The notes: generated from the sequence alone by a model not told the origin. 32,000 nt of DNA from Telmatocola sphagniphila (GCF_018398935.1 NZ_CP074694.1:1080001-1112000); one strand, 5' to 3'; numbered from the stretch's first letter, positions 10,961 through 24,755 are shown. A program made the numbers and translations.

Positions 10961-11139
10961 GGAACGGGCGGGGGTGGGTGGCCCTAACTCGACAACCGAT
11001 CTGGTGTTCGGATGGAGTTCGCTCCGGACGGCTCGCCCTGGTGAAGCTTTCGCGGTTGCTACTTTTACGAGCATCACTTTAATTTCAGTCCGACGATCTC
11101 GCCAGTTTCCGGATTGAGCTACCCACCCCCGCCCGTTCC
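10961..11139. repeat. GC-motif module 1: inverted pair GGAACGGGCGGGGGTGGGTGGCCC (10961-10984) / GAGCTACCCACCCCCGCCCGTTCC (11116-11139)
   Basis: Arms are reverse complements apart from the outermost bases. CGCCCTGGTG at 11034-11043 lies between them. Confidence 0.85.
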
Positions 11140-11220
11140 ATCGTTGCCTATTGCCTAATCGCCGCCTTCGTTTCACAATAAGTTCAGTTTCTTCTCAATC
11201 ACACTTTCAGAGGCCCAACG

Positions 11221-12003
11221 ATGAAACCGCTCGCAATCGCTTCCCCTTTGCTCTTCCTGTTCGCATCGCTCGCCAGCGCCGAGAATCCGCCCGAATTCAA
11301 TTACAAGCTTTGTGAGAAACCAAATTATCTCTCCGAGTCCCACGGCAAAGAGATGATCCTGAAAGCCAAATTCAGAATCGGCCAGCCCGGTATCATCGCG
11401 GTTTACGAACGCAAGAACAAGAAAACGAATCGAGAGGATTACCCGGCCGAGATCCCGGTGAAGTTCTACAGCCCGGAAGCTGAAAAGAACTTTCGGGAAT
11501 CGATCATCGCCAGCAACAAAAGGAAAAAGGATCTGGTGGCCGAGCTGGTAGCGAAAGCGGATTTTTGCAAAGAGGATGAAGTTCTTTCGAAAGACTATGT
11601 TGTTCCGGATGCCCTCTTGCCCAAAGCCAGCATTACGCCTCGGTTTCAATCGCTTCAAAGTGGCTGGATGCGAATGCAGGAAGGCGCGGCCGAGTCCGAT
11701 GCAATCATGGAAAAGATCTTGGCGGATGCCCGGAAAAAGGGACAGACCGAAAAGCGAAAGTACTACGGTGCATTCGGTTTCGTTGATGCAAAAGTGAACG
11801 CAATCGCGCCGGAGAAGGAAGATAAGCCGATTGAGATTCCCACCGAGACGGCCGCGAGTTCGAAACTGTTTCTCGCGAAAGCCAAATTGCGGAACGATGC
11901 TGATAAAGCTGAAGGAATCAAAATCTTGAAAATGATTTTGGATCAGTACCCGGGAACCAAGGCAGCTAAGGAGGCCGCTGAGATCTTCGACGATTCAAAA
12001 TAA
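11221..12003 (+). CDS. Secreted hypothetical protein (260 aa), helical/TPR-like C-terminus
   Basis: Signal peptide MKPLAIASPLLFLFASLASA. Lys/Glu-rich. No family recognised. Confidence 0.6.
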   Translation: MKPLAIASPLLFLFASLASAENPPEFNYKLCEKPNYLSESHGKEMILKAKFRIGQPGIIAVYERKNKKTNREDYPAEIPVKFYSPEAEKNFRESIIASNKRKKDLVAELVAKADFCKEDEVLSKDYVVPDALLPKASITPRFQSLQSGWMRMQEGAAESDAIMEKILADARKKGQTEKRKYYGAFGFVDAKVNAIAPEKEDKPIEIPTETAASSKLFLAKAKLRNDADKAEGIKILKMILDQYPGTKAAKEAAEIFDDSK

Positions 12004-12028
12004 CCGGAGCAGGTTTCCAGTCCAGGCA

Positions 12029-13327
12029 TCAGGGCCCAATCGCCCCGCCTTGTCGCGCCGCCGCTTGAACCGCTCCGCCCATCACTTGAACAGTGGCATT
12101 GATTTCATCAAGAGTTTTTTGCATCTGATCCTGCTTCATGTCCTCAGCGCCTAACGACTTGTTGAGTCTCATCCATGTATCACTCAAGCTTTCGAACTGA
12201 ACCGAGCCTACGCGAGTAAAACCTTTGTTCCCGCCGTTGTCTTGCCGAGCTTTTTCCCTCTCTTTAAGTCCTGCAAGATAATTCGAAATGTCACGCAGAG
12301 GATTTTTGGATGTATCTACTCCGATCCCGTTTGCAAATCGGTTGGCCATATCCCCTAATCCTTTGATGTGAGAGATCCCACCGCCCTGAAGATCGGCATC
12401 CCAATTCTTCATTACCAAATCGAGCGTTCCGGGTTTCATAATTCCTAGATTTTCTCCCATCGCGGCCATTGTTGCAGCAATCGCGTTGGTAGCTTGTTTG
12501 TACTGCCGGACCATCCAATTCAATTTATCGATGACGAAGTTGACCGCTTTAGTTGCCCAATCCATGAGATGATCGGTCCAAGACTTGTTAGCGTCGTCCA
12601 TCGCGTTTGAAGTTTTTTCGGATTCAGTGTCGAAGAATCCGAACATATAAGCGCCGGCCGCAACGAGCCCCCCAATAGACGCAACTGCCAAACCTACCGG
12701 ACCTAAGAAAGCTGAACCGATAGCAACAGCCATCCCCCCAATTCCTTCCACCACCGCGAAGATTGCAGATCCCAAACCAACGAAAGAGCCGATGACCGTT
12801 GCGACGACAGAAGCAACCCCAGCGGCCGCGACAACGAATCCGGAAACCGCTGTAGCCATCACCACCCATTCCGTTGCCGCTTCGACGGTTGCCTTATCTA
12901 AACTTTGGAACCACTTCACAAAATCAATAACGGCATCGGTTGCCATTCGCACATACGGTGCCAGTGAGTCTCCAACCACTCTTGCAGCATATTCGAGAGC
13001 TGCCCCCAATTGCTGCATTTCAACCGTGCCAGCGCCCGCCTGAGACAAGATCCCGCCGATACCTAAAGTCCCGCCGAGTGTGAATTTGGATGCTGCCGAA
13101 GTGATGCTCGATATCGACTTGGAAACCGATTCGATAACCTGATTCGCCGAACGGCTGAAGGAAGCAACGGCCGCTTGCGATCTCGCGATTGCAGCCGCAA
13201 AGAGGTCTGCCGCTTTACTCGACTTGCCGAGCTTGCCGCCAATGCCGTCGATATCCGATTGTACTTTCGAAACTCCGTTGGTTACGAAGTCGACAGTCAT
13301 TTCCGCAAGTTGCTCTGAAGTCGCCAT
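12029..13327 (-). CDS. Phage tail tape-measure-like protein (432 aa; function tentative)
   Basis: Ala/Ser-rich coiled N-terminus. Central Gly-zipper hydrophobic block (VVAAAGVASVVATVIGSFVGLGSAIFAVVEGIGGMAVAIGSAFLGPVGLAVASIGGLVAAGA) typical of TMPs. Strong SD (GGAGGG) 5 nt upstream of the ATG. Confidence 0.5.
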   Translation of the reverse strand: MATSEQLAEMTVDFVTNGVSKVQSDIDGIGGKLGKSSKAADLFAAAIARSQAAVASFSRSANQVIESVSKSISSITSAASKFTLGGTLGIGGILSQAGAGTVEMQQLGAALEYAARVVGDSLAPYVRMATDAVIDFVKWFQSLDKATVEAATEWVVMATAVSGFVVAAAGVASVVATVIGSFVGLGSAIFAVVEGIGGMAVAIGSAFLGPVGLAVASIGGLVAAGAYMFGFFDTESEKTSNAMDDANKSWTDHLMDWATKAVNFVIDKLNWMVRQYKQATNAIAATMAAMGENLGIMKPGTLDLVMKNWDADLQGGGISHIKGLGDMANRFANGIGVDTSKNPLRDISNYLAGLKEREKARQDNGGNKGFTRVGSVQFESLSDTWMRLNKSLGAEDMKQDQMQKTLDEINATVQVMGGAVQAAARQGGAIGP

Positions 13328-13487
13328 GATTCCCTCCGGTGATTCGAAGTCTCTTTCACATTGGTTCCAACTGTAACAAGTTCGCCATAAATCCCCAAAC
13401 CGCCCGCCTGGTCAACCGGCCAAGGCGAGAGCATTGGTTCAAGTTTCGCCGCGATCAGCCGCCCTTGCTAGTCACCAGCTCGCACGG

Positions 13488-13721
13488 TTACTCTTCCGCG
13501 TCGAGAACCGATCCCATGAATTCTTGAAGAGCTTTAATCGATTCGGCGTCATTCCCGAAAATGCTATTCAGAAAGCTCAACCAGCTTTTGGGTTTGCCGC
13601 CAGTGGGCTCGTTAATCGGTCTGCACATGCTACTTTCCTTTTTAAAGTTACTTGTTAAAAGTTCGAAGTTTCTATCCCATGCCGAGCATCGCAGTGCGAG
13701 ATCGGCCAGATGTTGATTCAA
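13488..13721 (-). pseudogene. Fragment of a P4/D5-type primase-helicase (region just upstream of the P-loop)
   Basis: KSWLSFLNSIFGNDAESIKALQEFMGS aligns with EWIKFLQSIWPKDPEAIDTLQEVSGY of the 634-aa protein. The ORF stops before any Walker A. No P-loop in other frames downstream. Confidence 0.6.
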
Positions 13722-13821
13722 TCCCGTTTGCCACTTTGTCGCCTATCGCATTTCTGAATCCCTCCCATCGGTTGCTAGGTTGCTTTGGTCGATCTTTCAC
13801 GCCGGCCGCAAGAGCAATTCA

Positions 13822-13965
13822 CCGCGGGCGGGGTGGGTTGCCCTGATGGTATCCAGTTCGGTCTACCGGTCGCCTGGTGGTCGCCTGGTGAAGATCCGAT
13901 CACTCGCCGCCCGCTTCCCCCGTTTCCCCTGGTGTCTGGAGTGGGCCACCCACCCCCGCCCGTTC
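13822..13965. repeat. GC-motif module 2: CCGCGGGCGGGGTGGGTTGCCC (13822-13843) / GGGCCACCCACCCCCGCCCGTTC (13943-13965)
   Basis: Inverted pair. Tandem CGCCTGGTG at 13871-13879 and 13882-13890 lies between the arms. The right arm lies inside the 3' end of CDS 13900-14394. Confidence 0.85.
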
Positions 13966-14394
13966 ATCCGCCGATGTTTCACCCGACACCGGTTTCTTTC
14001 GCTCATCCACAAGCCCTAAATACTCACGGATCCGCTCCAGAGGTGGCAAGTGGATCCGCAGCCCTAGTAAATCGTCAATCGCTCGCTGGGCCATAATTCG
14101 GTCACGTGGCTTCGAGTTCGGATCGGAAATCACGGATGTATAGACGGCCAGCGATTCCGCACGTTGTTCCCGCCGAGCTTTCTGGATCTCCAGGACATTC
14201 CAATCGCGGGCGGTTCTTATCCAGCCCTGAATTGTCGAAGAGAAAATATCAGTACCAAATTTTTCGCGCACCTCCCGCTTGATTTCCTCCGTGGTGAAGT
14301 GCCGGCCGAGCATCGTTTGAACGAACTCAACACGCTCGCGAACTTGCTCCTGGTGAACAGCTCGCCTAGTCTTTTGGCCGTTGTCTTTTGCCAT
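13900..14394 (-). CDS. HTH protein, possibly terminase-small-subunit-like (tentative)
   Basis: 164-aa ORF. The pattern TTEEIKREVREKFG...STIQGWIRTARDW...KARREQRAESL...DRIMAQRAIDDLLGL resembles TerS-type N-terminal HTH plus helical oligomerisation region. The C-terminal 22 aa are encoded by GC-motif module 2. Confidence 0.45.
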   Translation of the reverse strand: MAKDNGQKTRRAVHQEQVRERVEFVQTMLGRHFTTEEIKREVREKFGTDIFSSTIQGWIRTARDWNVLEIQKARREQRAESLAVYTSVISDPNSKPRDRIMAQRAIDDLLGLRIHLPPLERIREYLGLVDERKKPVSGETSADERAGVGGPLQTPGETGEAGGE

Positions 14395-14478
14395 AAATCG
14401 CCGCCTTCAATTACCCTTCGCGCGCGTGAGGTATTCTGATCACAGTTGAACCGTCGCAACTCTCTCGATCCCAGGCAG

Positions 14479-14773
14479 ATTTTCAGCCCGCCAGAAGGCC
14501 CATTTTCAGCCCTCACAGATTCGTTTTGGTCCCATGGGTCCCATGTGGCCCCATGAATCCGAAAACCAGCTCAAATCCTGTGGCCGAGCTTCTAAGTACC
14601 GCTGAAGACAACCAAGCTAGGTGTCTAACTAATTAATTTTTGTTTTTCTCTACTTCATGGGTCCCATAGGACCAAACCTCAAAAGAGCAATTCTAAGTAC
14701 TGAAATAATCGGGGTTTACGCATGGCTCCATGAAGATCGTTCCATGAGGCCAATCATGGGGCCAAAAACGGTT
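14479..14773. promoter_or_regulatory. Iteron-rich, AT-centred intergenic region: candidate replication origin for the adjacent primase-helicase
   Basis: GGTCCCATG x2 and GGCCCCATG in tandem (14528-14555), GGTCCCAT (14660-14667), GGCTCCATG (14724-14732), inverted CATGGGGCC (14755-14763). ATTTTCAGCCC x2 (14479, 14502). TTCTAAGTAC x2 (14590, 14691). AT-rich core 14626-14655. Confidence 0.45.
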
Positions 14774-16678
14774 TCATGAGTCCTCAGATGGTTTGGCTAC
14801 CGGCTTACGAAGTCTAATTCCCTTAAAAAATTTCTTTCGTGTCTTTCCCTCGTCTATGAAATCGCCGTTTTTGGCCCCATCACTTTCGGGATCTGGGGCG
14901 TAAGTATCGCGAATAGTTTTGATCGCGTTGAAACACGATTTTAAATTGCGGCTGAAAAGGTTTCTTGGAAGAGGTTTGAGACCGGTTTTAATCGCGTATT
15001 CTTGCCATCGTAGGTAAACGTCAGCACAAGTTTCCGTTGCTTCTTTGTCGTCAATAAAGCAGTACTCTTCCACGAATTCAACAATCGGATTGGAGAGTGC
15101 TCTGAAGTCATCCATGTCATCCTGACCCGAACTCGGTTGTAGAAAATCCTTACCTTGTTCAATTCGTTCCTGAAGTCGTTTTAAGCCGTCCAAACTCCAC
15201 CAGAAAATAGAAGGAAGTTCCTTCAAAAGTTTCTCAGTTAAATAACGATCTTCACGCCCTAAAAATGAGGTTGTAGTTCGAAGCACAATGAATCTCGAAG
15301 CCAGCGCCAACGCCGAGTCGGGAAGCCGCGGCAGTTCATTGCTTGCGACTAAAATTCTCGCACCCAATCGCACTTCTTCGAGCGTACTCAAATACTTCCG
15401 CTCGATATCAATCGGATCGTCGCCGCTGATTGCCAGCAAACGATTCGTGATCAACTTGTCGTCGTAACGTCCGGAGATCCGCATATCGGGAAAAATAGCA
15501 AGCTTTTTGCCGATCCAGCCACTAAGCCCGAACGGGTTTGACAATTGGCTCATGCTCGATGCCAGGCAGTTGGAATGCCCCATCAGTGCTTGCAAGACCC
15601 GGCAGATTGTACTCTTTCCACTTCGAGGCGGACCTAAAAGAAAAAAGATCTTGTGGCATCGCGTTTGCCCGGACAAGAGATAGCCAGACACTTCCTGAAG
15701 AGTGTCGATTGCTTCTGGGTCCTTCGGCCAAATGGATTGAAGAAACTTTATCCATTCCGTTGGGTGAGACGATTCGATTCTAAAGTCACCAGTGAGAGCG
15801 TAATCGAGTTTGTGAAGGTTGAAAAAATCGGGTGACAATGGGGCTGGCTTCACTTCCTGACTCTTTAACAAATCGCTCAGCTTTAATAGGCCGTTTGAGA
15901 ACACGACGCAATCCGACATGTCTTGACCAGCTTTGGGGCCGCGAAGATAGCAGGGTGGTTCAATTTCTGAAGGTACTCTGGTTTTCGCACTAAGGGCTTG
16001 CATGGCCGATGAAATGTTATTCGTCGTTACTGGCGGCGGGGTGGGTGGTTCACCGTTGCCGGACCATGCCGCGATTTTCTTCTTGTACTCGGCTTCAATT
16101 AGTTTGTTGGCAACTTCCGTCAGCCGTGGTCGAAGATCTGAAACGGGTGTCAGTTTGTACCTTTCATCGGAGTAAATGTAAAATTGCTCCCTCCAATAAA
16201 CGACTTTATCCGTTCTTAGAAACTCGTTCGCAATCCTCATCGGATCATTTGGCTTGCGAAAAATCCCCCCGTTCTCTTTGAGATCTCTCTGGGCTTCTTC
16301 TCGCTTTTCTAAGTCCCGCTTCAGCGGATCTAGTGAGGGAGTAGTTCCCGCGATGTGTCCAAGAGAGTCTTCCAAAGATTTCAACATGTTCTCGGAGTGG
16401 CCACCCACCCCCGCCCGTTCATCCGCCGAGCTGGTGTTGTGAGGTGTAAGCGAGATTCCGTCCCCGGCAGCCGTGAATTGGGCGGGTGGGTTGCCATTCC
16501 CAAAGTTCGCCGTCTGATTTATTTTGCTCAGCATTCGAGCTAGAACGCGAGATCTGAAAGCAGAATCCGGATCGCTGCTACTTGAATTTGAATTTGACTT
16601 TGACTTTGTGTGTTCATCATGTACCATTAAATCGTCCTTTCCGTAGTCCGCGTTTGTTTTTCCGACTTGGCCACACAT
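14774..16678 (-). CDS. Phage/plasmid primase-helicase, P4-family C-terminal / D5-like SF3 NTPase
   Basis: 634 aa. W-x-x-FL...LQE-x-x-GY-LLSG motif followed by Walker A GPPRSGKST, then AIFPD and ILVASNE (SF3 motifs B and C). No obvious Toprim/AEP catalytic domain recognised in the N-terminus. Confidence 0.85.
   Translation of the reverse strand: MCGQVGKTNADYGKDDLMVHDEHTKSKSNSNSSSSDPDSAFRSRVLARMLSKINQTANFGNGNPPAQFTAAGDGISLTPHNTSSADERAGVGGHSENMLKSLEDSLGHIAGTTPSLDPLKRDLEKREEAQRDLKENGGIFRKPNDPMRIANEFLRTDKVVYWREQFYIYSDERYKLTPVSDLRPRLTEVANKLIEAEYKKKIAAWSGNGEPPTPPPVTTNNISSAMQALSAKTRVPSEIEPPCYLRGPKAGQDMSDCVVFSNGLLKLSDLLKSQEVKPAPLSPDFFNLHKLDYALTGDFRIESSHPTEWIKFLQSIWPKDPEAIDTLQEVSGYLLSGQTRCHKIFFLLGPPRSGKSTICRVLQALMGHSNCLASSMSQLSNPFGLSGWIGKKLAIFPDMRISGRYDDKLITNRLLAISGDDPIDIERKYLSTLEEVRLGARILVASNELPRLPDSALALASRFIVLRTTTSFLGREDRYLTEKLLKELPSIFWWSLDGLKRLQERIEQGKDFLQPSSGQDDMDDFRALSNPIVEFVEEYCFIDDKEATETCADVYLRWQEYAIKTGLKPLPRNLFSRNLKSCFNAIKTIRDTYAPDPESDGAKNGDFIDEGKTRKKFFKGIRLRKPVAKPSEDS
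16032..16050. repeat. Degenerate GC-motif copy (GGCGGCGGGGTGGGTGGTT)
   Basis: Reverse complement AACCACCCACCCCGCCGCC. Encodes EPPTPPPV within the primase-helicase. Weaker match than the other copies. Confidence 0.4.
16399..16495. repeat. GC-motif module 3: GGCCACCCACCCCCGCCCGTTC (16399-16420) / GAATTGGGCGGGTGGGTTGCC (16475-16495), wholly inside the primase-helicase CDS
   Basis: Inverted pair about 55 bp apart. Translated as ADERAGVGG and GNPPAQF. Confidence 0.8.
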
Positions 16679-16708: not shown

Positions 16709-18016
16709 CTAGGTGTTCCTTACTACTGCTGCAGCTCTATCGAGTAATCTCGGCCGCCACGGTTCCGACGTTGCCAATGTTTCGATATTCTTGGACCTCC
16801 CGATAAAGCCCCCGCGGGATTGCAGCCGCGCATGACCAGCCAGGGCCCATGCGAGGACTGCTTCCCGTTCACTCACGAGCCGTTTCAACAGTGACGGATC
16901 GTCTGGTAGTTCTTTTGTCGTTTTCACATGCGTGAACTTGTTGCCGAGATCTTGGCCAGGGCGAAACGGCTTGGTAAGAGTTTCCGCCACGATGATCATC
17001 TTCGTGCTCGATTTCGAGTTGCGTATCGTCGGCTTTCTATCGCTACTCGGAAGCAACGGTTTTCTCTCGATGGTCATGGGCCGATTCATGGAAAATTTGA
17101 TCAGGTTGTTAATGATCCGATTTCGCAGTGAGAAACTTTTCGGCATGTAAAAGTATTTGCAAAAAACCGCCATGTGTGGCTGCATGAATTCAAAGATCCA
17201 CGACTTACCCAGTTGGTCAACGAAGGGATAGCAAGCGTTTTCGTCGCCAAGAAGTATTCGAAGCATTCGGCAAATCAAGTCTGTGCTTGATTCCGGGCCT
17301 GTTAAAACAAACATGTTTCCGTAGCTGGTGTCACTGGTCAAAACGTAGCTGAAAAGCTCTTGAACTGTTTCCGCTGTGTTGCCATCGACGACGTGGCCGA
17401 GGGCTTCGAGCCAGGCTGGACATCTGCCAGACTTCAAATCTGGACTAACCCGGATGCCGTTCAGATTGAAGAGCCGCGGCCGCGTCGGGTTATCATTGGA
17501 GCAACCCACCCCCGCCCGATTCCCCTTCGAACTGGTGAACCGGCCGGATTCGATAGCTTCCTTCAACTCGTGCGGGTCGAATAGACCTTCCGATGTGACG
17601 ATCTTTTTGGAAAGGTCTATCCTGCTTTTAGTGCCGAGAAAAAACGGGGGTTCAAAAGTCCCGTCAACGTACGTTCTGACCATCAACGCATTTTTGACGG
17701 CATCCACGAGCCGCCGTTGAACTATTGGCTTTGTGAATTGAAACTCTGGATGACACTTCAGCTTCAATTCGAATTCCGCCTCGATAACATTATTGCTACA
17801 TGACGCTATCAATCCGGCCGCTTCAGAGTTGAGCATTTCCCGGTATCCAACTCTGTCGGGTTCTTGGATCCAAAAACTTCCCCGCCAGTAAACAAGCTGT
17901 TTGAATTCCCGGATAAAGTCCGCAATCTTTCCGGGTGGGGACCATGTTTTAATTGCGATAATCTGTTCTTTTTCCGCCGCTGCCACTGTTCCGTTCGTTC
18001 GTTTGTTCCCGACCAT
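16709..18016 (-). CDS. Degenerate paralogue of the primase-helicase lacking Walker A
   Basis: 435 aa. Shares VYWR..F.I and IEAE(F/Y) N-terminal blocks and the AWLEALG...VQELFSYVLTS motif. Has GPESSTD where the neighbour has GPPRSGKST. Confidence 0.75.
   Translation of the reverse strand: MVGNKRTNGTVAAAEKEQIIAIKTWSPPGKIADFIREFKQLVYWRGSFWIQEPDRVGYREMLNSEAAGLIASCSNNVIEAEFELKLKCHPEFQFTKPIVQRRLVDAVKNALMVRTYVDGTFEPPFFLGTKSRIDLSKKIVTSEGLFDPHELKEAIESGRFTSSKGNRAGVGCSNDNPTRPRLFNLNGIRVSPDLKSGRCPAWLEALGHVVDGNTAETVQELFSYVLTSDTSYGNMFVLTGPESSTDLICRMLRILLGDENACYPFVDQLGKSWIFEFMQPHMAVFCKYFYMPKSFSLRNRIINNLIKFSMNRPMTIERKPLLPSSDRKPTIRNSKSSTKMIIVAETLTKPFRPGQDLGNKFTHVKTTKELPDDPSLLKRLVSEREAVLAWALAGHARLQSRGGFIGRSKNIETLATSEPWRPRLLDRAAAVVRNT
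17499..17522. repeat. GC-motif copy GAGCAACCCACCCCCGCCCGATTC (single, inside CDS 16709-18016)
   Basis: 31 bp (17500-17530) identical to 18989-19019. Translated as GNRAGVGCS. Confidence 0.85.
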
Positions 18017-18019
18017 GTT

Positions 18020-18292: not shown

Positions 18293-18371
18293 ATTGCGCC
18301 GCGATCACCAAACGGCGCAGGGGGGTTATGAAGTCTGAAGGTTTTCGAGGAATTATTGAGGCTTAGTAATC

Positions 18372-18393
18372 GTGCGGGCGGGGTGGGTAGCCC
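18372..18393. repeat. GC-motif copy GTGCGGGCGGGGTGGGTAGCCC (intergenic, between two HTH genes)
   Basis: Reverse complement GGGCTACCCACCCCGCCCGCAC. Confidence 0.8.
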
Positions 18394-18428
18394 AAAGGAT
18401 ACCGCGACGGAAAGAACTTCAGGAGAGC

Positions 18429-18713: not shown

Positions 18714-18988
18714 AAAAGATTGAAAGCGTTAGTTTCTTGGTCTGAATGATGGATTAAGAAAGGAGTGTAACAAATGGGGATTGATTCCCAAGTGATCCGC
18801 TCTAACGCTTCAGGGGATTTGGCTTATATGACGCCTAGATGAAACGTTGGAAGTATTATGATTATGAAGCTGACACGAGTCAAGTTTAGTTGTCGCAAAT
18901 TGACAATTTTCCGCATAGCGGACTGGGACACCTGTGTGGTGAATTGCTCTGGATGCTACCAGTCTGATCGGTTTCCGGGCTCGATGAT

Positions 18989-19122
18989 AGCAACCCACCC
19001 CCGCCCGATTCCCCTTCGACGGCTCGCCCTGGTGGTATCGGGTTGGTTCTGATCATCGCCCTGGTGGACACTGCCGCCCGGGGTGAGAAGTCACCAGCGA
19101 CGAACGGGGCGGGTGGGTAGCC
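18989..19122. repeat. GC-motif module 6: AGCAACCCACCCCCGCCCGATTC (18989-19011) / GAACGGGGCGGGTGGGTAGCC (19102-19122)
   Basis: Inverted pair. CGCCCTGGTG at 19025-19034 and 19067-19076, plus an inverted TCACCAGCGA at 19091-19100, lie between the arms. Confidence 0.85.
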
Positions 19123-19168
19123 TTGGGTCATCGGCACATGCGCGGCGCACGCGGGGATATCTCGCCAG

Positions 19169-19393: not shown

Positions 19394-19399
19394 GGAATC

Positions 19400-19466: not shown

Positions 19467-19555
19467 ACCCATAGTTACTGAAAAGAGCGAAGCCAGCCGA
19501 AGATTGCACCCTTCGACTGGCTTCTAACCCAAAAACTTGTTAGGAGTTTTCGAGT

Positions 19556-19792: not shown

Positions 19793-19836
19793 TCAACCCA
19801 TCATTCGCCCACTCTTCTTAATCCACCGTACATCCA

Positions 19837-21141
19837 ATGAGAACCACAATGCATACTTACACTCGCACCAATTGGCTGAAAGAACCAACCGCACTTCTGC
19901 GTTACCTTACCCGCCAGAATGTTTTCCGGCTTCTCGATCCTTACGAGTTTGCCAAAGGTCGAACCGCTCAAGAATTTTGGGACGATGCGGAATACGAATA
20001 TCTTCTTACCGGTCTTTTGCGTGTCGCGGACGTTCGAAGGGAAGGCCCGTTGCCCTGGAAACACTACGCGGAAGCTTCCATAGCGGTCTGTGAGCTTGCC
20101 CTGACTTATTTCGCTAACGATCTGGTCCCGGGTGTCGAAACGCTCCAACTGGCGAAAAAATATCTTGTAACGCCTACTCGGGCTCTGGGTAAAAAGATTG
20201 CTCGTAACGCGGTTTTTTTGGCAGATTCCGACCATGACCACGGCGGAAAATTGCTTCTCAAATCGACTGCAAGCTTGCATGAGGCGATTGCGTATGCATC
20301 TTTCTGCACGCTCCGCAGTTCAATCCAACTCTCCCATGCGGAACGACGTTCGCTTTCCGAAGTGGAACAATTCAAACTGAATGAACTTCTCGGCAAGTCT
20401 TATGCATTATTACCCATTGAACGTCGTTCGACTTTGATCTGCCATGAGCCGGCATTCAATTTGCCAATCCAATTAATGAGCGAAGTTTTTGGATTCTGTA
20501 ATGATGCATTCGATGATCGATCCGCAATATTATTCGAATCAAAAGCATGCCAGATTATACGAGATTTAATCCCATGTCCCTGGCACGAAGACAGAGATCA
20601 AGAGGAATTTGAGAAACACAATCGATTTGTAAAGCATCTGGAATTCATAGATGTTAAAAAATCCACTATCGAAAAGCTCACGCGCACGATACCAGTAGTC
20701 ACATGGAATCAAGATGAGTCTTTAGCTCAGTTTCTGGAATGGTCCGTCAGATCGCTCTGGTATCAGGATTCCGATCTTTGCAAAAGCAAATTGAATGAAG
20801 CTTTCGAAGGATCGTTGAATTTCTTTAAAAAAAATCAGCATTTGTCTGACGAATGCATTTCCATTTGCAGATACATCGCTGAAGGCTTTTCGGAAGCAGA
20901 ATCAGTTGAATCTTTGTTGGCGAGTGCGGCCACGATCAAAAAGGTAATGGTCCCTGTCTACGAAAAACTGAAGCTCGAAACGACTGCTAGCAATGGTAAG
21001 TACGGTTACAAACCGGACTACAAAAAATGTTGCGAAAATCTCTTGGTTCGAACCTTGAGAAATCGCCTACCTATCCCGTGGACTGAATGCCCTATCCCAG
21101 CGTCCGCCGAAATCGAACAACTGAGAGAATTGGCGGCTTAA
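19837..21141 (+). CDS. Hypothetical protein (434 aa), island cargo of unknown function
   Basis: Long ORF, predicted mostly helical. Recurrent P-C/I-P-W motifs (LIPCPWHEDRD, LPIPWTECPIP). GC falls to about 37-43% over 20400-20640 by hand count. Confidence 0.7.
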   Translation: MRTTMHTYTRTNWLKEPTALLRYLTRQNVFRLLDPYEFAKGRTAQEFWDDAEYEYLLTGLLRVADVRREGPLPWKHYAEASIAVCELALTYFANDLVPGVETLQLAKKYLVTPTRALGKKIARNAVFLADSDHDHGGKLLLKSTASLHEAIAYASFCTLRSSIQLSHAERRSLSEVEQFKLNELLGKSYALLPIERRSTLICHEPAFNLPIQLMSEVFGFCNDAFDDRSAILFESKACQIIRDLIPCPWHEDRDQEEFEKHNRFVKHLEFIDVKKSTIEKLTRTIPVVTWNQDESLAQFLEWSVRSLWYQDSDLCKSKLNEAFEGSLNFFKKNQHLSDECISICRYIAEGFSEAESVESLLASAATIKKVMVPVYEKLKLETTASNGKYGYKPDYKKCCENLLVRTLRNRLPIPWTECPIPASAEIEQLRELAA

Positions 21142-21200
21142 TCGAGCCGATGCCTTCGTTTACTCGCCCGTTTTTTATTCAGAAAGTGAGATTAGATCCC

Positions 21201-21443
21201 ATGGCCAATGAATCGGAACCAAAGTACGTCACGGCGGCGGAAGTCGCCAAGCAACTGAAAGTGTCGGTAATCGCCGTTCATCGCTGGATGACCCACGGGA
21301 AAAAGGGGATAGTCCTACCCGCGATCAAGCCAGGAAGAGTTTGGTTGACCACTCAGAAATGGCTGGATGAATGGGCCAAGAAAGTTACGCCGGGGATGCC
21401 CATGCAATTTGGAAGTCGTACTGAGAGTTATCATGCCAGCTAA
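21201..21443 (+). CDS. Excisionase/AlpA-like HTH DNA-binding protein
   Basis: YVTAAEVAKQLKVSVIAVHRWMTHGKKGIVLPAIKPGRVWLTTQKWLDEW. Overlaps the integrase start by 11 bp. Confidence 0.65.
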   Translation: MANESEPKYVTAAEVAKQLKVSVIAVHRWMTHGKKGIVLPAIKPGRVWLTTQKWLDEWAKKVTPGMPMQFGSRTESYHAS

Positions 21444-22512
21444 AACGAACTTCCCAAAATTGAGGTTCTTGAAATCCCGTGGGGTGTACTCCTATTACCA
21501 CGACGGCCGGAGATTCTACCTAGGACGCGATTACGACAAAGCACTTGAACTGCACCGAGCCGCAATCCTTCGAATCAATTCCAACATTGCGAATCCTGCC
21601 CCCATACGAAAAACTGACCTGTTAATTTCGGAAGCGGTTCAGTTTTACTTGGAGGGCCCGGTAAGCAAAATGGGCAAATCCGATGCCCACCGCAATTTCT
21701 TTGCGATTAAGACACTGGTGTTGTACTGCGGAGCGATGCCCGCCGAGTCGTTCCGAGTCCAGCACGTTGAGCATATCACAAATGAATTCTGCAAAATGCG
21801 TGCTCGAACGCGAACCTACAAGAGCAACGTCTGTGACGGTCGCCCATACAGCCGACAGTACGTTACCAAACTTCTAGGCTGCATCCGGCAATGCTGGCGA
21901 TATCTGGCCCTGCATGATTACGTAAGTGCGGATTGTGCGGCGAAAGTCACTCTGGCCGTGCGAGCGGCGAAAAAGAACGCATCTCCGAGTTTGCCACCCA
22001 CCCGCCCCGTCTCAGCTGAAGCCGTGCGAGCTACTGTGCAATTTCTTCCGCCCGCGATCGCGGACATGGTAAGCGTTCAGATTGCTACCGGTATGCGAAC
22101 CGGCGAGCTGGTGAGCATGACTTGGGAAGCTATCGACAGTTCGGGCTCAACATGGATTTACGCCCCGCCAAAGCACAAGAACTCCTGGAGGGGACACCAG
22201 CGTCGAATCTACCTGCCTGATGAACTTCAGGAGATCTTGCGGAAGTATCCGAATGCTGGGGCAGGTCAAACACTTTGGGGAGTACCGTTTGATCGATACT
22301 ATCGGCACCTTCGAACGGCTCAAGAAAAGGCAGGGGTAGAACCTTGGAGACCGTACCAGCTCCGACACGCGGCCGCTACTGAGATCCTGAAACGGAAAGG
22401 GGCAGAAGCGGCGAAGTTTCTACTGGGACACGCGGGGGGTGGGTTGCTCAAGCTGTACACCGGGAGCGAACCGGAGAATATGTCACGTTCGGGCAAACTA
22501 AATGCCGTCTGA
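21433..22512 (+). CDS. Tyrosine recombinase / integrase 1 (~359 aa)
   Basis: GMRTGELVSMTW (Arg I), YQLRHAAATE (H-x-x-R), LLGHAGGGLLKLY (His/Tyr box). Start taken at Met 21433 rather than ORF start 21367. Confidence 0.85.
   Translation: MPAKTNFPKLRFLKSRGVYSYYHDGRRFYLGRDYDKALELHRAAILRINSNIANPAPIRKTDLLISEAVQFYLEGPVSKMGKSDAHRNFFAIKTLVLYCGAMPAESFRVQHVEHITNEFCKMRARTRTYKSNVCDGRPYSRQYVTKLLGCIRQCWRYLALHDYVSADCAAKVTLAVRAAKKNASPSLPPTRPVSAEAVRATVQFLPPAIADMVSVQIATGMRTGELVSMTWEAIDSSGSTWIYAPPKHKNSWRGHQRRIYLPDELQEILRKYPNAGAGQTLWGVPFDRYYRHLRTAQEKAGVEPWRPYQLRHAAATEILKRKGAEAAKFLLGHAGGGLLKLYTGSEPENMSRSGKLNAV
21991..22011. repeat. GC-motif variant TTGCCACCCACCCGCCCCGTC inside integrase 1
   Basis: Encodes LPPTRPV. 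Variant with CCCGCCCC order. Confidence 0.55.
22431..22449. repeat. GC-motif variant CGCGGGGGGTGGGTTGCTC inside integrase 1 (His/Tyr box)
   Basis: Reverse complement GAGCAACCCACCCCCCGCG. Encodes HAGGGLL. Confidence 0.5.
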
Positions 22513-22564
22513 TCACGGGCGGGTATCCACTTCGAACGAAGACAATCAACGAAAAGGAACCACG

Positions 22565-22855
22565 ATGGAAGAAAGATTAATTGAAGAGGGTTTGCTTTCA
22601 CTTCAGGAAGTTGCTCGGCGCTGTGGAGTATCGCCCGGGATGCTCTGGCGTCTCTGCAAGCAAGGGAAGCTGGAATGTGTACGAACATCAGCTAACGGCC
22701 GATGGTTGACCAGTTTGAAAGCAGTAACGCGGTACCTGGCAGGGGTAAAAGCAGACATGGCCTCCGTGAAGACTGCGAATGAAATGGATATCGAACAACG
22801 GGCGGCTATTGCAACTGCGAAAGCGCTGGCGATGTGTGAGCGGAAAAAACGTTGA
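22565..22855 (+). CDS. Excisionase/AlpA-like HTH DNA-binding protein
   Basis: LLSLQEVARRCGVSPGMLWRLCKQGKLECVRTSANGRWLTSLKAVTRYL. Start at Met 22565. Confidence 0.65.
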   Translation: MEERLIEEGLLSLQEVARRCGVSPGMLWRLCKQGKLECVRTSANGRWLTSLKAVTRYLAGVKADMASVKTANEMDIEQRAAIATAKALAMCERKKR

Positions 22856-22864
22856 CCAGCGGCA

Positions 22865-23157
22865 GACGGCGGGGCGGGGGTGGGTAGCTCAAAATCAACG
22901 CAATCGTCTCACATATCACCGGATCCGTCTCAATCTTCCTCCCCATCGTCTCAACAAGTCAATCGGATTGCACCGCACTTCAATGCGGCGGACGTTTGCC
23001 GAGCTGGTAGACGAACGGCAGCGAAGATCCTTTCTGGCTCATCAGCGTCGTTTATCGGGCGATTAGGGCGGGCTCGAGGGAATCCGCTTTCCTTGTTCCG
23101 TTCGCCTTCCCCCGGTCCGCCCTGGTGAGTTTTAGGGCTACCCACCCCCGCCCGTTC
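22865..23157. repeat. GC-motif module 8: GACGGCGGGGCGGGGGTGGGTAGCTC (22865-22890) / GGGCTACCCACCCCCGCCCGTTC (23135-23157)
   Basis: Inverted pair about 245 bp apart. CGCCCTGGTG at 23118-23127 is immediately inside the right arm. Confidence 0.85.
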
Positions 23158-23321
23158 ATCGCCATGCCTTTTTTCTCACTTCACCCTTTCAGCCGTCCAC
23201 CATTTCCACCCGCATTGATTAACTCAATCTGTGCAATTATAATTCCGATGACCTTTGGGCCGGGCGATGCGGGGAACTGGAAAGCCCCCTCGCCAGGTCC
23301 GCTTTCCAGAAAGGTCTCTGC

Positions 23322-24755
23322 ATGGGTTCCATTTTCAAACAGACTACGTGGAAGTCCGTTCCACCCGAAGCGAACATCATCACTCGCGACGGGAAGCGTT
23401 TCGCGGTCTGGATTCAGAACGGCAAAAAACGAAAAGAAGAAGTCCGAACGGTTCAGACTGGCAAAGACAAAGGCCAGTTTCGAATCTGCATTTTTTCAAA
23501 GCACTGGTACGCCAAATATCGAGACAGCTCCAATCTAGTCGTTGTTACGTGCACTGAATGCAAGGACGAAGCCAACGCGCGAAAGGAACTCGAAAAATAC
23601 GAACGGCAAGCGGAACGGGTTCGAAAAGGGATTATCACGCCGGCTGAAGAGAAGCTGGAGAAGCAAACGCCTAAGCCTATCGCCGAGCACTTCGACGCGT
23701 TTGAACACTATTTGAGATCCAAGGAAGTTACGAAGGTTCACCGCGAGAACTCCAGGCGGTATCTAAATCGGCTCGCGGAAGAATGCAGCTTTGTTACATT
23801 GCTCAGCATGCGGCGAGAATCCTTCGAGAAGTGGCTGGCCAATCGAATCGTCGACGGCATGTCGGCACGTTCGCGGAACGCCCACCGGGAAGCGCTGAAC
23901 GCGTTTTGCAACTGGTGTGTTGCTACTGAAAGGTTACTCGATAACCCTTTCCGATTGGTCCGGAAAGCTAACGAAGACGCGGATCCTCGAAGGCAGCGGC
24001 GAGCCATGACAGCGGAAGAGCTGCGGCGGTTGCTCCAGGTGGCGAAAGAGCGGCCGCTGAAGGAAGCTTTGATGATCCGCCGCGGCGAGCGAAAAGGGCA
24101 ACTGGCCGCGAATGTGTCTGACGAACTGAAAGTCAGGCTGGAGCAAATAGGACGGGAAAGGGCACTGATCTACAAAACTTTGGTTCTGACCGGTCTGCGC
24201 CGTGGCGAGCTGGCTTCTCTGACCGTGGCGAAATTGTCCCTGGCGGGTTCTTCCCCTCATGCCTACCTCGATGCGGCAGACGAAAAGAATCGAACAGGTA
24301 GTGTAATCCCCATTCGTGACGATCTGGCGGATGATCTGCGGCACTGGCTGGCGGACAAGCTTCGAGCCCTTCAAGATCTGGCCCGGGCCCGCGGCGAGTC
24401 AATCCCTCGCGAATTGCCTGCTCAGACGAAACTCTTTGCGGTACCAGCTCAGATGATCCGAACTTTCGACCGAGATTTAAAAGCAGCGGGCATCCCCAAA
24501 GTAGATGATCGCGGCCGGACCTTGGACGTTCATGCCATGCGTACCACGTTCGGAACTCTGCTCAGCAAGGCAGGGGTTTCCCCTCGAACGGCACAAGCGG
24601 CCATGCGTCACTCAGATATTTCTCTGACGATGAACACATACACCGATCCGAAATTGTTGGACGTTCGCGGAGCGCTGGACGGACTGCCGGAGCTTTCTTT
24701 GAGCAACCCACCCCCGCCCGTCCTGGTGAAAATTTCCGCCCGGGAAACGGCTTGA
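23322..24755 (+). CDS. Tyrosine recombinase / integrase 2 (477 aa), adjacent to attR
   Basis: LTGLRRGELASLTV (Arg I), HAMRTTFGTLL (H-x-x-R), AMRHSDISLTMNTYTD (His/Tyr). Long N-terminal arm-binding/SAM-like region. Confidence 0.9.
   Translation: MGSIFKQTTWKSVPPEANIITRDGKRFAVWIQNGKKRKEEVRTVQTGKDKGQFRICIFSKHWYAKYRDSSNLVVVTCTECKDEANARKELEKYERQAERVRKGIITPAEEKLEKQTPKPIAEHFDAFEHYLRSKEVTKVHRENSRRYLNRLAEECSFVTLLSMRRESFEKWLANRIVDGMSARSRNAHREALNAFCNWCVATERLLDNPFRLVRKANEDADPRRQRRAMTAEELRRLLQVAKERPLKEALMIRRGERKGQLAANVSDELKVRLEQIGRERALIYKTLVLTGLRRGELASLTVAKLSLAGSSPHAYLDAADEKNRTGSVIPIRDDLADDLRHWLADKLRALQDLARARGESIPRELPAQTKLFAVPAQMIRTFDRDLKAAGIPKVDDRGRTLDVHAMRTTFGTLLSKAGVSPRTAQAAMRHSDISLTMNTYTDPKLLDVRGALDGLPELSLSNPPPPVLVKISARETA
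24701..24723. repeat. GC-motif copy GAGCAACCCACCCCCGCCCGTCC at the 3' end of integrase 2
   Basis: Encodes LSNPPPPV. Runs directly into CGTCCTGGTG / TGGTGAAAAT. Confidence 0.85.

What the first reader, a model, noticed from the sequence alone, without database searches (positions are those of the whole stretch)
10961..24723. Island-restricted family of 15-16 GC-rich 20-24 bp repeats (RGCNACCCACCC(CC)GCCCG), mostly as inverted pairs
I read copies at these positions:
- 10961 and 11116
- 13822 and 13943
- 16399 and 16475, plus a degenerate copy at 16032
- 17499
- 18372
- 18989 and 19102
- 21991 and 22431
- 22865 and 23135
- 24701

Orientations largely alternate. Most copies form inverted pairs separated by about 55-440 bp. 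I saw none in the 17.7 kb of this window outside the island.

The copies fall into subfamilies with extended identical flanks. A 29-bp block, CCACCCACCCCCGCCCGTTCATCCGCCGA, is shared by 13948-13976 and 16401-16429. A 31-bp block, AGCAACCCACCCCCGCCCGATTCCCCTTCGA, is shared by 17500-17530 and 18989-19019. That pattern suggests duplication or recombination rather than independent binding-site evolution.

Copies sit in intergenic DNA, at gene ends and inside ORFs. I do not recognise the motif as any described repeat class. Candidate roles:
- recombination sites for one of the two island tyrosine recombinases, giving shufflon-like or deletion/inversion-prone architecture
- operator sites for the four AlpA/Xis-like HTH proteins
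- a MITE/REP-like selfish repeat
- long GC-clamped RNA hairpins
Basis: partly seen in the sequence, partly recalled or inferred. Interest (0 to 1): 0.85.

Follow-up and report, generated by a model that had tools for sequence, protein, structure and literature searches.

The report
Island-only GC-rich interspersed repeat family
A decayed 14-kb mobile island in the planctomycete Telmatocola sphagniphila holds about 16 copies of a short, very GC-rich sequence that occurs nowhere in the DNA around the island, appears to have been copied and pasted within it, and matches no described repeat class; its function is unknown.

Summary
A profile built from the copies finds 15 clear copies and 1 weak copy of (T)TGRGC-N-ACCCACCC(C0-2)GCCCG-(T/A)TC. 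All lie inside a tRNA-Pro island (10754-25005). None lies in 27 kb of flanking chromosome.

- **Host and island.** The organism is Telmatocola sphagniphila. The island is a mosaic of decayed satellite or prophage modules.
- **What the motif is not.** It is not the integrase arm site, which is GTTTGTAC x2 at both ends. It is not a self-folding REP unit, not a MITE, and not an Rfam RNA. It is absent from 80 related islands.
- **Evidence for copy-and-paste.** One copy sits in a 16-codon insertion unique to a primase pseudogene. It shares an identical 31-nt block with an unrelated intergenic site. Paralogous modules whose proteins are about 26-30% identical carry an identical 31-nt block.
- **Placement.** Copies favour intergenic DNA (10 of 16 in 21% of the island). 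They alternate in orientation (13 of 15 junctions). Four lie co-oriented 60-130 nt upstream of a gene start. Many carry a second motif, CTGGTG(A).

**Best reading (about 0.4):** an island-restricted interspersed repeat whose invariant core is a protein recognition site. Rivals: a dispersed operator regulon, recombination sites, RNA hairpins. Function is unproven, and genome-wide specificity could not be tested.

The parts
10754..10800 (.). attL: 47-bp direct repeat, identical to the 3' end of tRNA-Pro; left island boundary
   Evidence: (D7: 10754-10800 = 24959-25005, 100%)
24959..25033 (-). attR core (24959-25005) within tRNA-Pro(TGG) 24960-25033; right island boundary
10961..10987 (-). GC-core unit (perfect 15-mer at 10965-10979); left arm of inverted pair 1
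   Evidence: (I11)
11112..11142 (+). GC-core unit (perfect, 11121-11135); right arm of pair 1; core ends 86 nt upstream of the 260-aa gene (ATG 11221) and is co-oriented with it
13817..13846 (-). GC-core unit, C4 variant (ACCCACCCCGCCCGC); left arm of pair 2; about 100 nt upstream of the primase remnant ORF (13488-13721, minus strand) and co-oriented with it
13936..13976 (+). GC-core unit (perfect, 13948-13962); right arm of pair 2; 31-nt block 13944-13974 identical to 16399-16429; overlaps the 3' tail of the 164-aa ORF
   Evidence: (D4)
16028..16054 (-). Weak or doubtful copy inside the primase-helicase gene, encoding EPPTPPPV on a natively proline-rich conserved segment
   Evidence: (E 0.14)
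16391..16429 (+). GC-core unit (perfect, 16403-16417); left arm of pair 3; 16 nt upstream of the probable primase start (ATG 16387-16385, minus strand)
16472..16499 (-). GC-core unit, C3 variant (ACCCACCCGCCCA); right arm of pair 3; about 92 nt upstream of the primase start and co-oriented with it
17496..17545 (+). GC-core unit (perfect, 17504-17518) followed by CTGGTGAA (17532); lies in a 16-codon insertion unique to the degenerate 435-aa primase paralogue; 31-nt block identical to 18989-19019
18370..18396 (-). GC-core unit, C4 variant; about 83 nt upstream of the HTH_17 gene 18020-18292 (minus strand) and co-oriented with it
18922..18949 (-). Decayed extra copy (79% identical to 22422-22449)
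   Evidence: D11
18985..19042 (+). GC-core unit (perfect, 18993-19007) with a tail and CTGGTGG (19029); left arm of pair 4; downstream of the NikA-like gene
19099..19124 (-). GC-core unit, C3 variant; right arm of pair 4
21988..22019 (+). Degenerate copy inside the 381-aa tyrosine recombinase gene (encodes LPPTRPVS in the inter-domain linker)
22423..22452 (-). Degenerate copy inside the 381-aa recombinase gene; replaces the His-x8-Tyr segment (HAGGGLLKLY) with no length change; a 17-nt stretch (22435-22451) is exactly complementary to 24699-24715
   Evidence: (I24)
22866..22894 (-). GC-core unit (1 mismatch); left arm of pair 6; starts 11 nt after the HTH_17 gene stop
   Evidence: (I14)
23108..23160 (+). 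GC-core unit (perfect, 23140-23154), preceded by CCCTGGTGA (23122); right arm of pair 6; upstream of a promoter-like site (23215-23243) and of the integrase gene (ATG 23322)
24698..24733 (+). GC-core unit (perfect, 24706-24720) at the 3' tail of the 477-aa integrase gene, directly followed by CTGGTGAAAAT
11001..11045 (+). Second motif, CTGGTG(A/T), two copies (11001, 11038) inside pair 1. Further copies at 13874, 13885, 13929, 16431, 17532, 19029, 19061, 19092(-), 23122, 24723. Twelve lie within 60 nt of a core, 11 of them on the + strand

Best explanation
The copies are a short, non-coding interspersed repeat. Each unit is about 25-50 bp and consists of:
- a 5' TTGRGC-N;
- an invariant C-rich core, ACCCACCCCCGCCCG;
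- a loosely conserved tail, TTCATCCGCC;
- often a CTGGTG(A) box.

The repeat multiplied inside this decaying tRNA-Pro island by copy-and-paste, meaning discrete insertion or short-patch gene conversion. It was not inherited along with the island's genes.

The core stays invariant while the tails drift, so the core is the selected part. This implies it is the recognition site of a trans-acting protein, either the agent that copies it or an island DNA-binding protein.

Copies persist mainly between genes, where they are tolerated. They persist in alternating orientation because directly repeated neighbours would recombine and delete, whereas inverted neighbours only invert.

As a by-product or as a function, neighbouring inverted copies form 20-bp GC-clamped stems at gene ends and in 5' regions.

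- *Shown:* the family is real and confined to the island within the DNA that could be read. At least one insertion occurred. There is identity without homologous context. Copies show intergenic bias and alternation. The repeat is not the integrase arm site.
- *Inferred:* protein recognition of the core, survivorship as the cause of alternation, and any function.
For: - **Family and distribution.** 15 clear copies and 1 weak copy in 14.2 kb of island, against 0 in 27 kb of flanks.
- **Insertion.**
  - In a 12-sequence alignment, the prim435 segment SGRFTSSKGNRAGVGC (unit 17504 plus CTGGTGAA) aligns to a gap in prim634 and in all 10 homologues.
  - Its 31-nt block is identical to intergenic 18989-19019, and no similarity surrounds either copy.
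- **Paralogous modules.**
  - The arrangement [p164-like gene]-core(+)-[primase] occurs twice.
  - The proteins are only 26-30% identical, yet 13944-13974 = 16399-16429 is 31 of 31 identical, with a sharp 3' boundary.
- **Patch-like copies in ORFs.** Int381 has HAGGGLLKLY aligned to XerD HSDLSTTQIY without any indel, although 17 nt there exactly match (as reverse complement) another copy (I24, 40).
- **Core versus flanks.** The core has full information content, while flanks fall into mixed subfamilies.
- **Placement.** 10 of 16 copies lie in the 21% of the island that is intergenic (P=4e-4). Alternation is 13 of 15 (P=0.004).
- **No pair-specific co-variation.** Arms match non-partner copies as well as or better than their partners: I4, I8 and I16 are 100%, against I11 at 95% and I14 at 91%. 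This indicates copies drawn from a common pool.
- **Alternatives excluded.**
  - The Int477 arm sites are GTTTGTAC x2 at both ends, as in relatives L199, L203 and L217.
  - None of 80 related islands has the motif or an analogous dispersed family.
Against: - No transposase, RAYT or other obvious mobilising enzyme is encoded in the island.
- No target-site duplications are present, and pair interiors are not conserved. No known transposition mechanism therefore fits.
- Only one clean insertion is documented. Other intragenic copies are equal-length patches, and one (16046) may be native sequence.
- Four copies lie co-oriented 60-130 nt upstream of start codons (P about 0.003, window chosen post hoc). 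Together with perfect core conservation, this fits a regulatory operator family at least as well.
- Restriction to the island is odd for a selfish repeat, unless its mobilising factor is island-encoded or acts locally.
- The whole genome could not be searched.
Confidence: 0.4

Rival explanations
1. Dispersed operator or UAS regulon. The core is the asymmetric binding site of one island-encoded DNA-binding protein. Candidates are the four HTH_17/AlpA-Xis-like proteins, the NikA-like RHH protein, and the 434-aa protein with a weak LuxR-type HTH. The protein would co-ordinate most transcription units of the island, with inverted partners allowing looping. Occasional gene conversion would explain the shared flanks.
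For: - 10 of 16 copies are intergenic (P=4e-4).
- 4 copies lie co-oriented 60-130 nt upstream of starts (P=0.003). Six of about 8 transcription units have a co-oriented upstream copy (gene map).
- The 15-nt core is perfect in 8 copies.
- The copy at 23140 lies about 60 nt upstream of a promoter-like site for the integrase.
- Four HTH_17 genes are present.
- A second motif, CTGGTG(A), sits next to the cores, and related TGGTG[AC]AAAAT boxes sit in both att arms. This suggests multi-protein sites.
Against: - 6 of 16 copies are inside ORFs, including one carried on an insertion.
- Identical 31-nt flanks in unrelated contexts are not explained by binding-site selection.
- No conserved promoter lies at a fixed distance from the core.
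- Start codons are uncertain.
- The motif is absent from all related islands, so no co-variation with a protein could be shown.
Confidence: 0.27
2. Site-specific recombination sites for the internal 381-aa tyrosine recombinase. This would be shufflon-like inversion of gene-sized segments, or cassette accretion and deletion. The asymmetric site would allow inversion only.
For: - Orientation alternates, which is what is expected if directly repeated sites excise.
- The site is an asymmetric unit of about 22 nt, like sfx sites (own knowledge of the R64 shufflon).
- Copies sit at boundaries between mosaic modules.
- A second recombinase gene lies inside the array.
- Flank subfamilies are mixed in a mosaic way.
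Against: - The Logan assembly of the same strain is identical and colinear through 9 copies. It breaks only where a 31-mer is repeated, or at the att repeat.
- The unit has no dyad or spacer architecture of a recombinase core site.
- Two copies lie inverted inside the Int381 gene itself, and that gene is intact.
- Int381 has an odd His-x8-Tyr segment and may be inactive.
- The insertion in prim435 cannot be made by site-by-site exchange.
- 11 of 12 core-proximal CTGGTG motifs keep one strand, which argues against frequent inversion.
Confidence: 0.12
3. Function at the RNA or single-strand level. Inverted pairs would act as GC-clamped hairpins that end or stabilise transcripts at gene 3' ends, or gate translation in 5' leaders. 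Alternatively they would act as hairpins on transferred or replicating single-stranded DNA, as priming sites or single-strand promoters for the island's primase and mobilisation functions.
For: - Pairs fold through about 20-bp arms: -46 kcal/mol with z -4.3 for pair 1 as DNA, and z -2.7 for pair 3.
- Pairs start 11-47 nt after the stops of the HTH117 and NikA-like genes. They overlap the 3' tails of the p164 and Int477 ORFs. One arm ends 12-16 nt before the primase ATG.
- Strand asymmetry is present: + copies are perfect, - copies are degenerate, and CTGGTG is almost always on the + strand.
- A NikA-like gene and a palindrome at 19400-19466 suggest an oriT (I17, 10).
Against: - Interiors add no structure, and z-scores are modest for pairs 2 and 4.
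- There is no compensatory change between partner arms.
- No U-tracts are present, and Rfam gives no match even at E<=5.
- Single copies (17504, 18375, 24706) have no partner.
- Both head-to-head and tail-to-tail pairs occur, so no single transcript logic holds.
Confidence: 0.13
4. Ordinary host-wide REP-like repeat that only looks island-specific because just 41 kb could be inspected.
For: - The rest of the 6.59-Mb genome was not readable with these tools.
- REP-type families occur in the PVC group (PMC3733652).
Against: - There are 0 copies in 27 kb of flanks against 16 in 14.2 kb.
- Single units are not stem-loops.
- A host-wide family would not be expected at about 1.1 copies per kb inside a horizontally acquired island only.
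Confidence: 0.06

Closest known systems
REPINs / REP-BIME elements (REP doublets mobilised by RAYT transposases)
   Same: - Short conserved units of about 20-35 nt, scattered mostly between genes.
- Typically found as inverted doublets with a less conserved spacer.
- Successive units alternate in orientation, with head-to-head and tail-to-tail junctions.
- Singlets occur as remnants.
- (PMC3337134, PMC3116915, PMC3733652; BIME details from own knowledge.)
   Different: - Here the single unit is not a palindrome or stem-loop.
- There is no conserved GTAG or CGTC tag.
- No RAYT is in the window.
- Spacers are 60-420 bp and unrelated.
- Copies are confined to one 14-kb island rather than spread over the chromosome, as far as could be seen.
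Mobile GC clusters of yeast mitochondrial DNA and Rickettsia palindromic elements
   Same: - Short GC-rich modules in a lower-GC background.
- They insert between genes and, in frame, into coding regions.
- They have no coding capacity and no known dedicated enzyme.
- (PMC4478555 for GC clusters; RPE from own knowledge.)
   Different: - Those elements are themselves hairpin-forming and occur genome-wide in their genomes.
- Here units are asymmetric and C-rich, and hairpins arise only between separate copies.
- Only one clean in-frame insertion is documented.
R64-type shufflon sfx sites with Rci recombinase
   Same: - Asymmetric sites of about 19-22 bp in alternating orientation.
- A tyrosine recombinase gene lies beside or within the array.
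- (Own knowledge.)
   Different: - Shufflon segments are 200-500 bp and swap C-terminal exons of one gene.
- Here segments are up to 2.9 kb and carry whole genes.
- No ORF-fusion logic and no sign of heterogeneity are present.
Dispersed operators of mobile-element global regulators (P1 C1 operators; RK2 KorB OB sites)
   Same: - A dozen or more near-identical sites confined to one mobile element.
- Sites are promoter-proximal, distal and intragenic.
- P1 operators are asymmetric and sometimes paired in inverted orientation.
- (Own knowledge.)
   Different: - No binding protein has been identified here.
- Extended identical flanks and an insertion event are not features of operator families.
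- The motif is 85% G+C and not palindromic.
Integron attC sites
   Same: Inverted conserved ends with a variable centre, placed between gene modules next to a tyrosine recombinase gene.
   Different: - attC sites have one fixed polarity (R''...R'), whereas both polarities occur here.
- Modules here are not promoterless single-gene cassettes in one orientation.
- Neither integrase scores as IntI: NCBIfam integron-integrase scores are 22-25 bits against cut-offs of 265-435.

Membership tests
REP / REPIN | Each unit is itself an imperfect palindrome (stem-loop) | tested here: not met
   11 units of 40 nt were folded as DNA. MFE ranged from 0 to -5.6 kcal/mol and z-scores from -0.9 to +1.6, no better than shuffles.
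REP / REPIN | Conserved GTAG or CGTC tetranucleotide tag at one end of the unit | tested here: not met
   GTAG is present only in the 5 copies that read GGGTAGC. The others read GGGTTGC or GGGTGGC.
REP / REPIN | Units organised as inverted doublets | tested here: met
   6 inverted pairs at 76-440 bp spacing. All five gaps under 300 bp are between inverted copies.
REP / REPIN | Cognate RAYT (Y1/HUH) transposase in the genome, and many extragenic copies genome-wide | tested here: inconclusive
   No Y1 transposase among the island or window proteins scanned. 0 copies in 27 kb of flanks.
MITE | Terminal inverted repeats flanked by a target-site duplication | tested here: not met
   Arms of 22-26 nt exist for pairs 1, 2 and 6 (I11, I14). 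No direct repeat flanks them (sequences).
MITE | Copies share a conserved internal sequence and similar length | tested here: not met
   Pair interiors are 60-420 bp and do not align, except near the arms.
Arm-type sites of the tRNA-Pro integrase (Int477) | Repeated sites in both att arms, conserved in layout among related elements | tested here: not met
   - The arm sites are tandem GTTTGTAC(C/T) at 10857/10869 and 24786/24798.
- Relatives have CGCTTGCACCA, CGCTTGTACTC or CGTTGCACT x2 in the same places.
- None of 80 related loci has the GC core.
Shufflon (sfx/Rci) | Structural heterogeneity (inversions) between the sites within a culture | tested here: inconclusive
   Logan contigs of the same strain (L002 = 18990-24988, L213 = 10771-13973) are identical to the window and run through 9 copies. 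Breaks occur only at repeated 31-mers or the att repeat. Raw reads could not be examined, and the reads may be the same data as the reference assembly.
Shufflon (sfx/Rci) | Sites lie within one gene so that inversion swaps alternative C-terminal segments | tested here: not met
   Segments carry whole, unrelated genes on both strands.
Integron attC / IntI | IntI-type integrase, and sites of a single polarity separating co-oriented cassettes | tested here: not met
   - Integron-integrase models score 22-25 bits against cut-offs of 265-435.
- Both pair polarities (-/+ and +/-) occur.
- Genes lie on both strands.
Any Rfam RNA family | Match to a curated covariance model | tested here: not met
   Only tRNA-Pro and its att fragment were found, at the gathering threshold and at E<=5.

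The most novel reading that the evidence does not exclude
The island carries its own self-contained repeat-propagation or rearrangement system. Two forms are possible:
- a new class of bacterial 'GC-cluster' mini-element, in which asymmetric units are copied locally in either orientation by an island-encoded factor or by templated repair;
- a gene-scale shufflon, in which the internal 381-aa tyrosine recombinase inverts or deletes whole modules at the 22-nt core.
Probability: 0.15. Interest if true: 0.75.

Novelty: new variant of a known kind. Interest (0 to 1): 0.5.

Why it matters
- **If the repeat is mobile.** Short interspersed repeats in bacteria are known as chromosome-wide families served by a dedicated transposase (REPIN/RAYT) or as MITEs. 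A family that is confined to one small, decaying integrative island, is built from non-palindromic units, and has demonstrably been inserted into a gene would point to an unrecognised local copy mechanism, or to a cis-site that mobile islands use for their own regulation or rearrangement.
- **If it is an operator family.** It would define the regulon of an uncharacterised planctomycete satellite-like element. Almost nothing is known about gene regulation or mobile elements in this phylum.
- **Practical effect.** These repeats break short-read assemblies of the island at shared 31-mers. They also extend spurious ORFs, because the unit has no stop codon in any frame.

Tried and rejected
1. **Genome-collection scan** for GCNACCCACCCCCGCCCG. 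Their flanks are unrelated. The scan never reached Telmatocola and was uninformative. The same pattern in viral contigs gave 10 single chance hits.
2. **Comparative route.**
   - Integrase relatives are at most 60% identical. 80 metagenome loci and L217 lack the motif and any analogous dispersed family.
   - Primase relatives are at most about 40% identical.
   - The HTH94 search returned only the query's own protein.
   - Viral-contig searches with three island proteins gave nothing usable.
   - No blastn hit was found in phage or plasmid collections, or in E. coli.
3. **Integrase arm-site idea.** Rejected: the arm sites are GTTTGTAC repeats.
4. **tRNA-derived origin.** The resemblance of GGGTAGCTCA to a tRNA 5' half, and of GCCCGTTCCA to an acceptor end, is present in only a few copies. 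There is no T-arm. Rejected.
5. **G-quadruplex or i-motif.** A fourth G-tract is present in only 5 copies. Rejected as a family property.
6. **Sigma-54 or ECF promoter readings of the motif.** Spacing fits only the shortest variant, and the most conserved part would be the spacer. Rejected.
7. **Chi-like reading of CTGGTG.** It occurs at chance frequency and without strong skew in the flanks. Rejected.
8. **Sigma-70 or terminator scan.** No enrichment and no fixed relation to the cores.
9. **Function of unknown island proteins** (p164, p434, p260). No informative family or structure match.

Full report
**Setting**

The window comes from Telmatocola sphagniphila (Planctomycetota, Gemmataceae). 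The 477-aa integrase, the primase-helicase and an HTH protein are 100% identical to NCBI proteins of that species, on a 6,592,641-bp record.

The repeats lie in a 14.2-kb island bounded by a perfect 47-bp direct repeat: 10754-10800 = 24959-25005. This repeat is the 3' end of tRNA-Pro(TGG) at 24960-25033.

The island is a mosaic of decayed satellite or prophage parts:
- a secreted 260-aa protein;
- a 432-aa tape-measure fragment;
- a 77-aa primase remnant;
- a 164-aa protein;
- a D5/DUF5906 SF3 primase-helicase;
- a degenerate 435-aa paralogue of it, 26% identical, with the Walker A motif lost;
- four HTH_17 (AlpA/Xis-like) proteins;
- a NikA-like RHH protein;
- a 434-aa unknown protein;
- two unrelated tyrosine recombinases (381 and 477 aa).

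ACCCACCCNNGCCCG with up to 2 mismatches gives 9 hits against 0.83 expected, all inside the island. GGGTGGGT occurs 16 times in the island, 8 per strand, and never outside it.

A profile HMM built from the units finds 15 copies at E <= 6e-3 and one weak copy (16028-16054). Nothing better than E = 14 appears in the remaining sequence. That sequence includes 9.4 kb beyond the window taken from a Logan contig of the same strain, so 27 kb of non-island DNA has no copy.

Orientation runs - + - + (-) + - + - + - + - - + +. That is 13 of 15 alternations (P=0.004), or 11 of 14 (P=0.03) if the weak copy is dropped.

- The shared blocks are 31 nt in both cases. One of them reaches about 40 nt if two 1-nt indels are allowed.
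- A further decayed copy lies at 18922-18949.
- Plus-strand copies are almost all perfect. Minus-strand copies mostly have a shortened C run.

**Anatomy of the unit**

Aligned in one orientation, the unit reads (T)TGRGC-N-ACCCACCC(C0-2)GCCCG-(T/A)TC, followed by a loosely conserved tail (TTCATCCGCC-like) of about 12 nt. Information content is maximal over the core and falls off quickly.

The unit is asymmetric. On its own it does not fold: z-scores are around 0 for 11 units.

A second motif, CTGGTG(A/G/T), often appearing as YCGCCYTGGTGR, occurs 12 times within 60 nt of a core, where about 0.8 would be expected. Eleven of the 12 are on the + strand. It lies inside each inverted pair or just 3' of single + cores. 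Related TGGTG[AC]AAAAT boxes sit in both att arms.

**What it is not**

- *Not the integrase arm site.* The arm-type sites of the tRNA-Pro integrase are tandem GTTTGTAC(C/T) repeats at 10857/10869 and 24786/24798.
  - Related islands have the same layout with their own arm sequence: L199, L203 and L217.
  - The 'LAPTLAPT' found in over-extended homologous integrase ORFs is simply these arm repeats translated.
- *Not shared with related islands.* None of 80 metagenomic loci encoding relatives of this integrase (45-59% identity), nor L217, has the GC core or any comparable dispersed family.
- *Not a known RNA.* Rfam gives nothing, even at E<=5.
- *Not found elsewhere.* There are no phage, plasmid or E. 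coli matches. The 120 matches to the 18-mer in other genomes are single chance hits in high-GC DNA with unrelated flanks.

**Evidence that the copies were pasted in rather than inherited**

1. In a 12-sequence alignment of the primase family, the 435-aa paralogue has a 16-residue segment, SGRFTSSKGNRAGVGC, opposite a gap in all 11 other sequences.
   - That segment is the unit at 17504 together with its CTGGTGAA box.
   - Its 31-nt block is identical to the intergenic copy at 18989-19019, and no similarity surrounds either copy.
2. The arrangement [p164-like gene]-core(+)-[primase] occurs twice.
   - The ORF extension upstream of the primase (16618-16400) is a decayed paralogue of the C-terminal half of p164 (14169-13945; 30% identity, E=0.027).
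   - The primases are 26% identical.
   - Even so, 13944-13974 and 16399-16429 are 31 of 31 identical, with a sharp 3' boundary.
   - Other copies carry different tails, so this identity cannot come from selection on a binding site. It must reflect recent copying or gene conversion.
3. Inside the 381-aa recombinase gene, a copy occupies the His-x8-Tyr segment: HAGGGLLKLY aligned to XerD HSDLSTTQIY, with no indel.
   - Seventeen nucleotides of it are exactly complementary to the copy at 24699-24715 (I24, 40).
   - This looks like patch replacement rather than insertion.
4. The arms of a pair are no more alike than non-partner copies. Cross-pair matches reach 100% over 21-23 nt, whereas partners match at 91-95%. 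The hairpins therefore do not co-evolve, and copies appear to be drawn from a common pool.

**Evidence bearing on function**

- Ten of 16 copies lie in the 21% of the island that is intergenic (P=4e-4).
- Four copies lie co-oriented with the downstream gene, with centres 60-130 nt upstream of its start codon: 11121 with the 260-aa gene, 13838 with the primase remnant, 16491 with the primase, and 18388 with HTH90. The permutation P is 0.003, with the distance window chosen post hoc and several start codons uncertain.
- The same pairs also sit just after stop codons of the preceding co-directional genes.
- Pairs fold through their arms of about 20 bp: pair 1 as DNA gives -46 kcal/mol with z -4.3, and the others give z from -1.2 to -2.7. 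Interiors contribute little.
- In the excised circle, 24706(+) and 10965(-) would bracket attP at a spacing of about 450 bp. This is an inference from the coordinates.
- An independent short-read assembly of the same strain is identical and colinear through nine copies. It breaks only at repeated 31-mers or at the att repeat. This gives no hint of ongoing inversion, but the test is weak.

**Interpretation**

The data best fit a short interspersed repeat that proliferated locally by copy-and-paste or patch conversion. Its invariant core is maintained because some protein recognises it.

Alternating orientation is what survives if direct neighbours recombine and delete.

Whether the core's primary role is selfish (recognition by its copier), regulatory (an operator or UAS for an island HTH protein) or recombinational (a site for Int381) cannot be settled from sequence alone. 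I put these at roughly 0.40, 0.27 and 0.12. Hairpin-level roles get about 0.13, and a trivial host-wide repeat about 0.06.

The main weaknesses are:
- no mobilising enzyme and no target-site duplication;
- only one clean insertion;
- no close relatives of the island;
- no access to the rest of the genome.

**Comparison with known systems**

In behaviour the family most resembles REPIN/BIME repeats: inverted doublets, alternation, intergenic bias and singlet remnants. It also resembles organellar GC clusters and Rickettsia palindromic elements in its in-frame insertion into genes.

It fails the defining REP tests. The unit is not a stem-loop, has no GTAG or CGTC tag, and no RAYT was seen. It fails the MITE tests as well, lacking a target-site duplication and a conserved interior.

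It shares asymmetric alternating sites with shufflons, and dispersed near-identical sites with the P1 C1 or RK2 KorB operator sets. It lacks the ORF-fusion logic of the former and an identified binding protein for the latter.

I therefore class it as a new variant of a known kind, short interspersed repeats, rather than as a member of any named family. Interest is moderate.

Noticed in passing
window 10857-10876 and 24786-24805: Tandem GTTTGTAC(C/T) repeats with a 12-bp period at both island ends. These are the probable arm-type sites of the 477-aa tRNA-Pro integrase. Relatives carry their own arm sequence in the same layout (L199 CGCTTGCACCA, L203 CGCTTGTACTC, L217 CGTTGCACT).
   Followed up: yes
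window 10844-10855, 10890-10900, 24723-24733: TGGTG[AC]AAAAT boxes, all on the + strand, flank the arm sites in both att arms. They could be binding sites for a directionality factor such as one of the HTH_17 proteins.
   Followed up: partly
proteins P0002-P0120 (alignment A3); L217 11300-11690: Called ORFs of homologous integrases run on for about 85 residues through the arm repeats ('LAPTLAPT') and into the tRNA gene ('GDWIRTSDLLNPI'). These C-terminal 'extensions' are probably annotation read-through of conserved att DNA.
   Followed up: partly
window 19400-19466: A 25-nt inverted repeat (84% complementary, 17-nt gap) lies between the divergent NikA-like gene and the 78-aa/434-aa genes, overlapping sigma-70-like hexamers. 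It is a candidate oriT or operator.
   Followed up: no
window 16669-16695: A strong 11-bp hairpin followed by a T run lies between the 435-aa gene and the primase. It overlaps the start of the longest primase ORF (ATG 16678). With homologues aligning only from residue 146 onward, it argues that the true primase start is further downstream, probably ATG 16387. The first roughly 100 codons of the longest ORF (the NCBI-annotated start lies 17 codons in) would then be a decayed p164-like gene plus two repeat copies.
   Followed up: partly
window 16709-18016: The 435-aa primase paralogue has lost the Walker A motif (GPESSTDLIC against GPPRSGKSTIC) and its C-terminal domain. It is likely a pseudogene kept open because the GC-rich insert has no stop codon.
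   Followed up: partly
window 12029-13327: The 432-aa ORF matches only an internal part of phage tape-measure proteins (PHROG 1272, profile positions 535-743 of 1606). It is a prophage tail-gene fragment inside a satellite-like island.
   Followed up: no
L002, L213, L216 (Logan SRR14506984): The k=31 assembly of the same strain breaks the island where 31-mers are shared between repeat copies (13944-13974/16399-16429 and 17500-17530/18989-19019) or at the att repeat. L216 is only 8,704 bp long, which implies a further break near window position 2050 that was not explained.
   Followed up: partly
L072 86-232 (Rhodococcus cerastii NZ_JAWLKF010000005.1): Three copies of GCTACCCACCCCCGCC(C/A)G-like sequence on one strand, at a spacing of about 72 bp. 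This is the only chance-hit locus with clustered copies. It is probably an unrelated tandem repeat.
   Followed up: no
L217 2272-2328: CTGGTGCCAGC occurs three times with a 23-bp period upstream of a ResIII helicase gene, in an island with a related integrase. The array looks like iterons.
   Followed up: no
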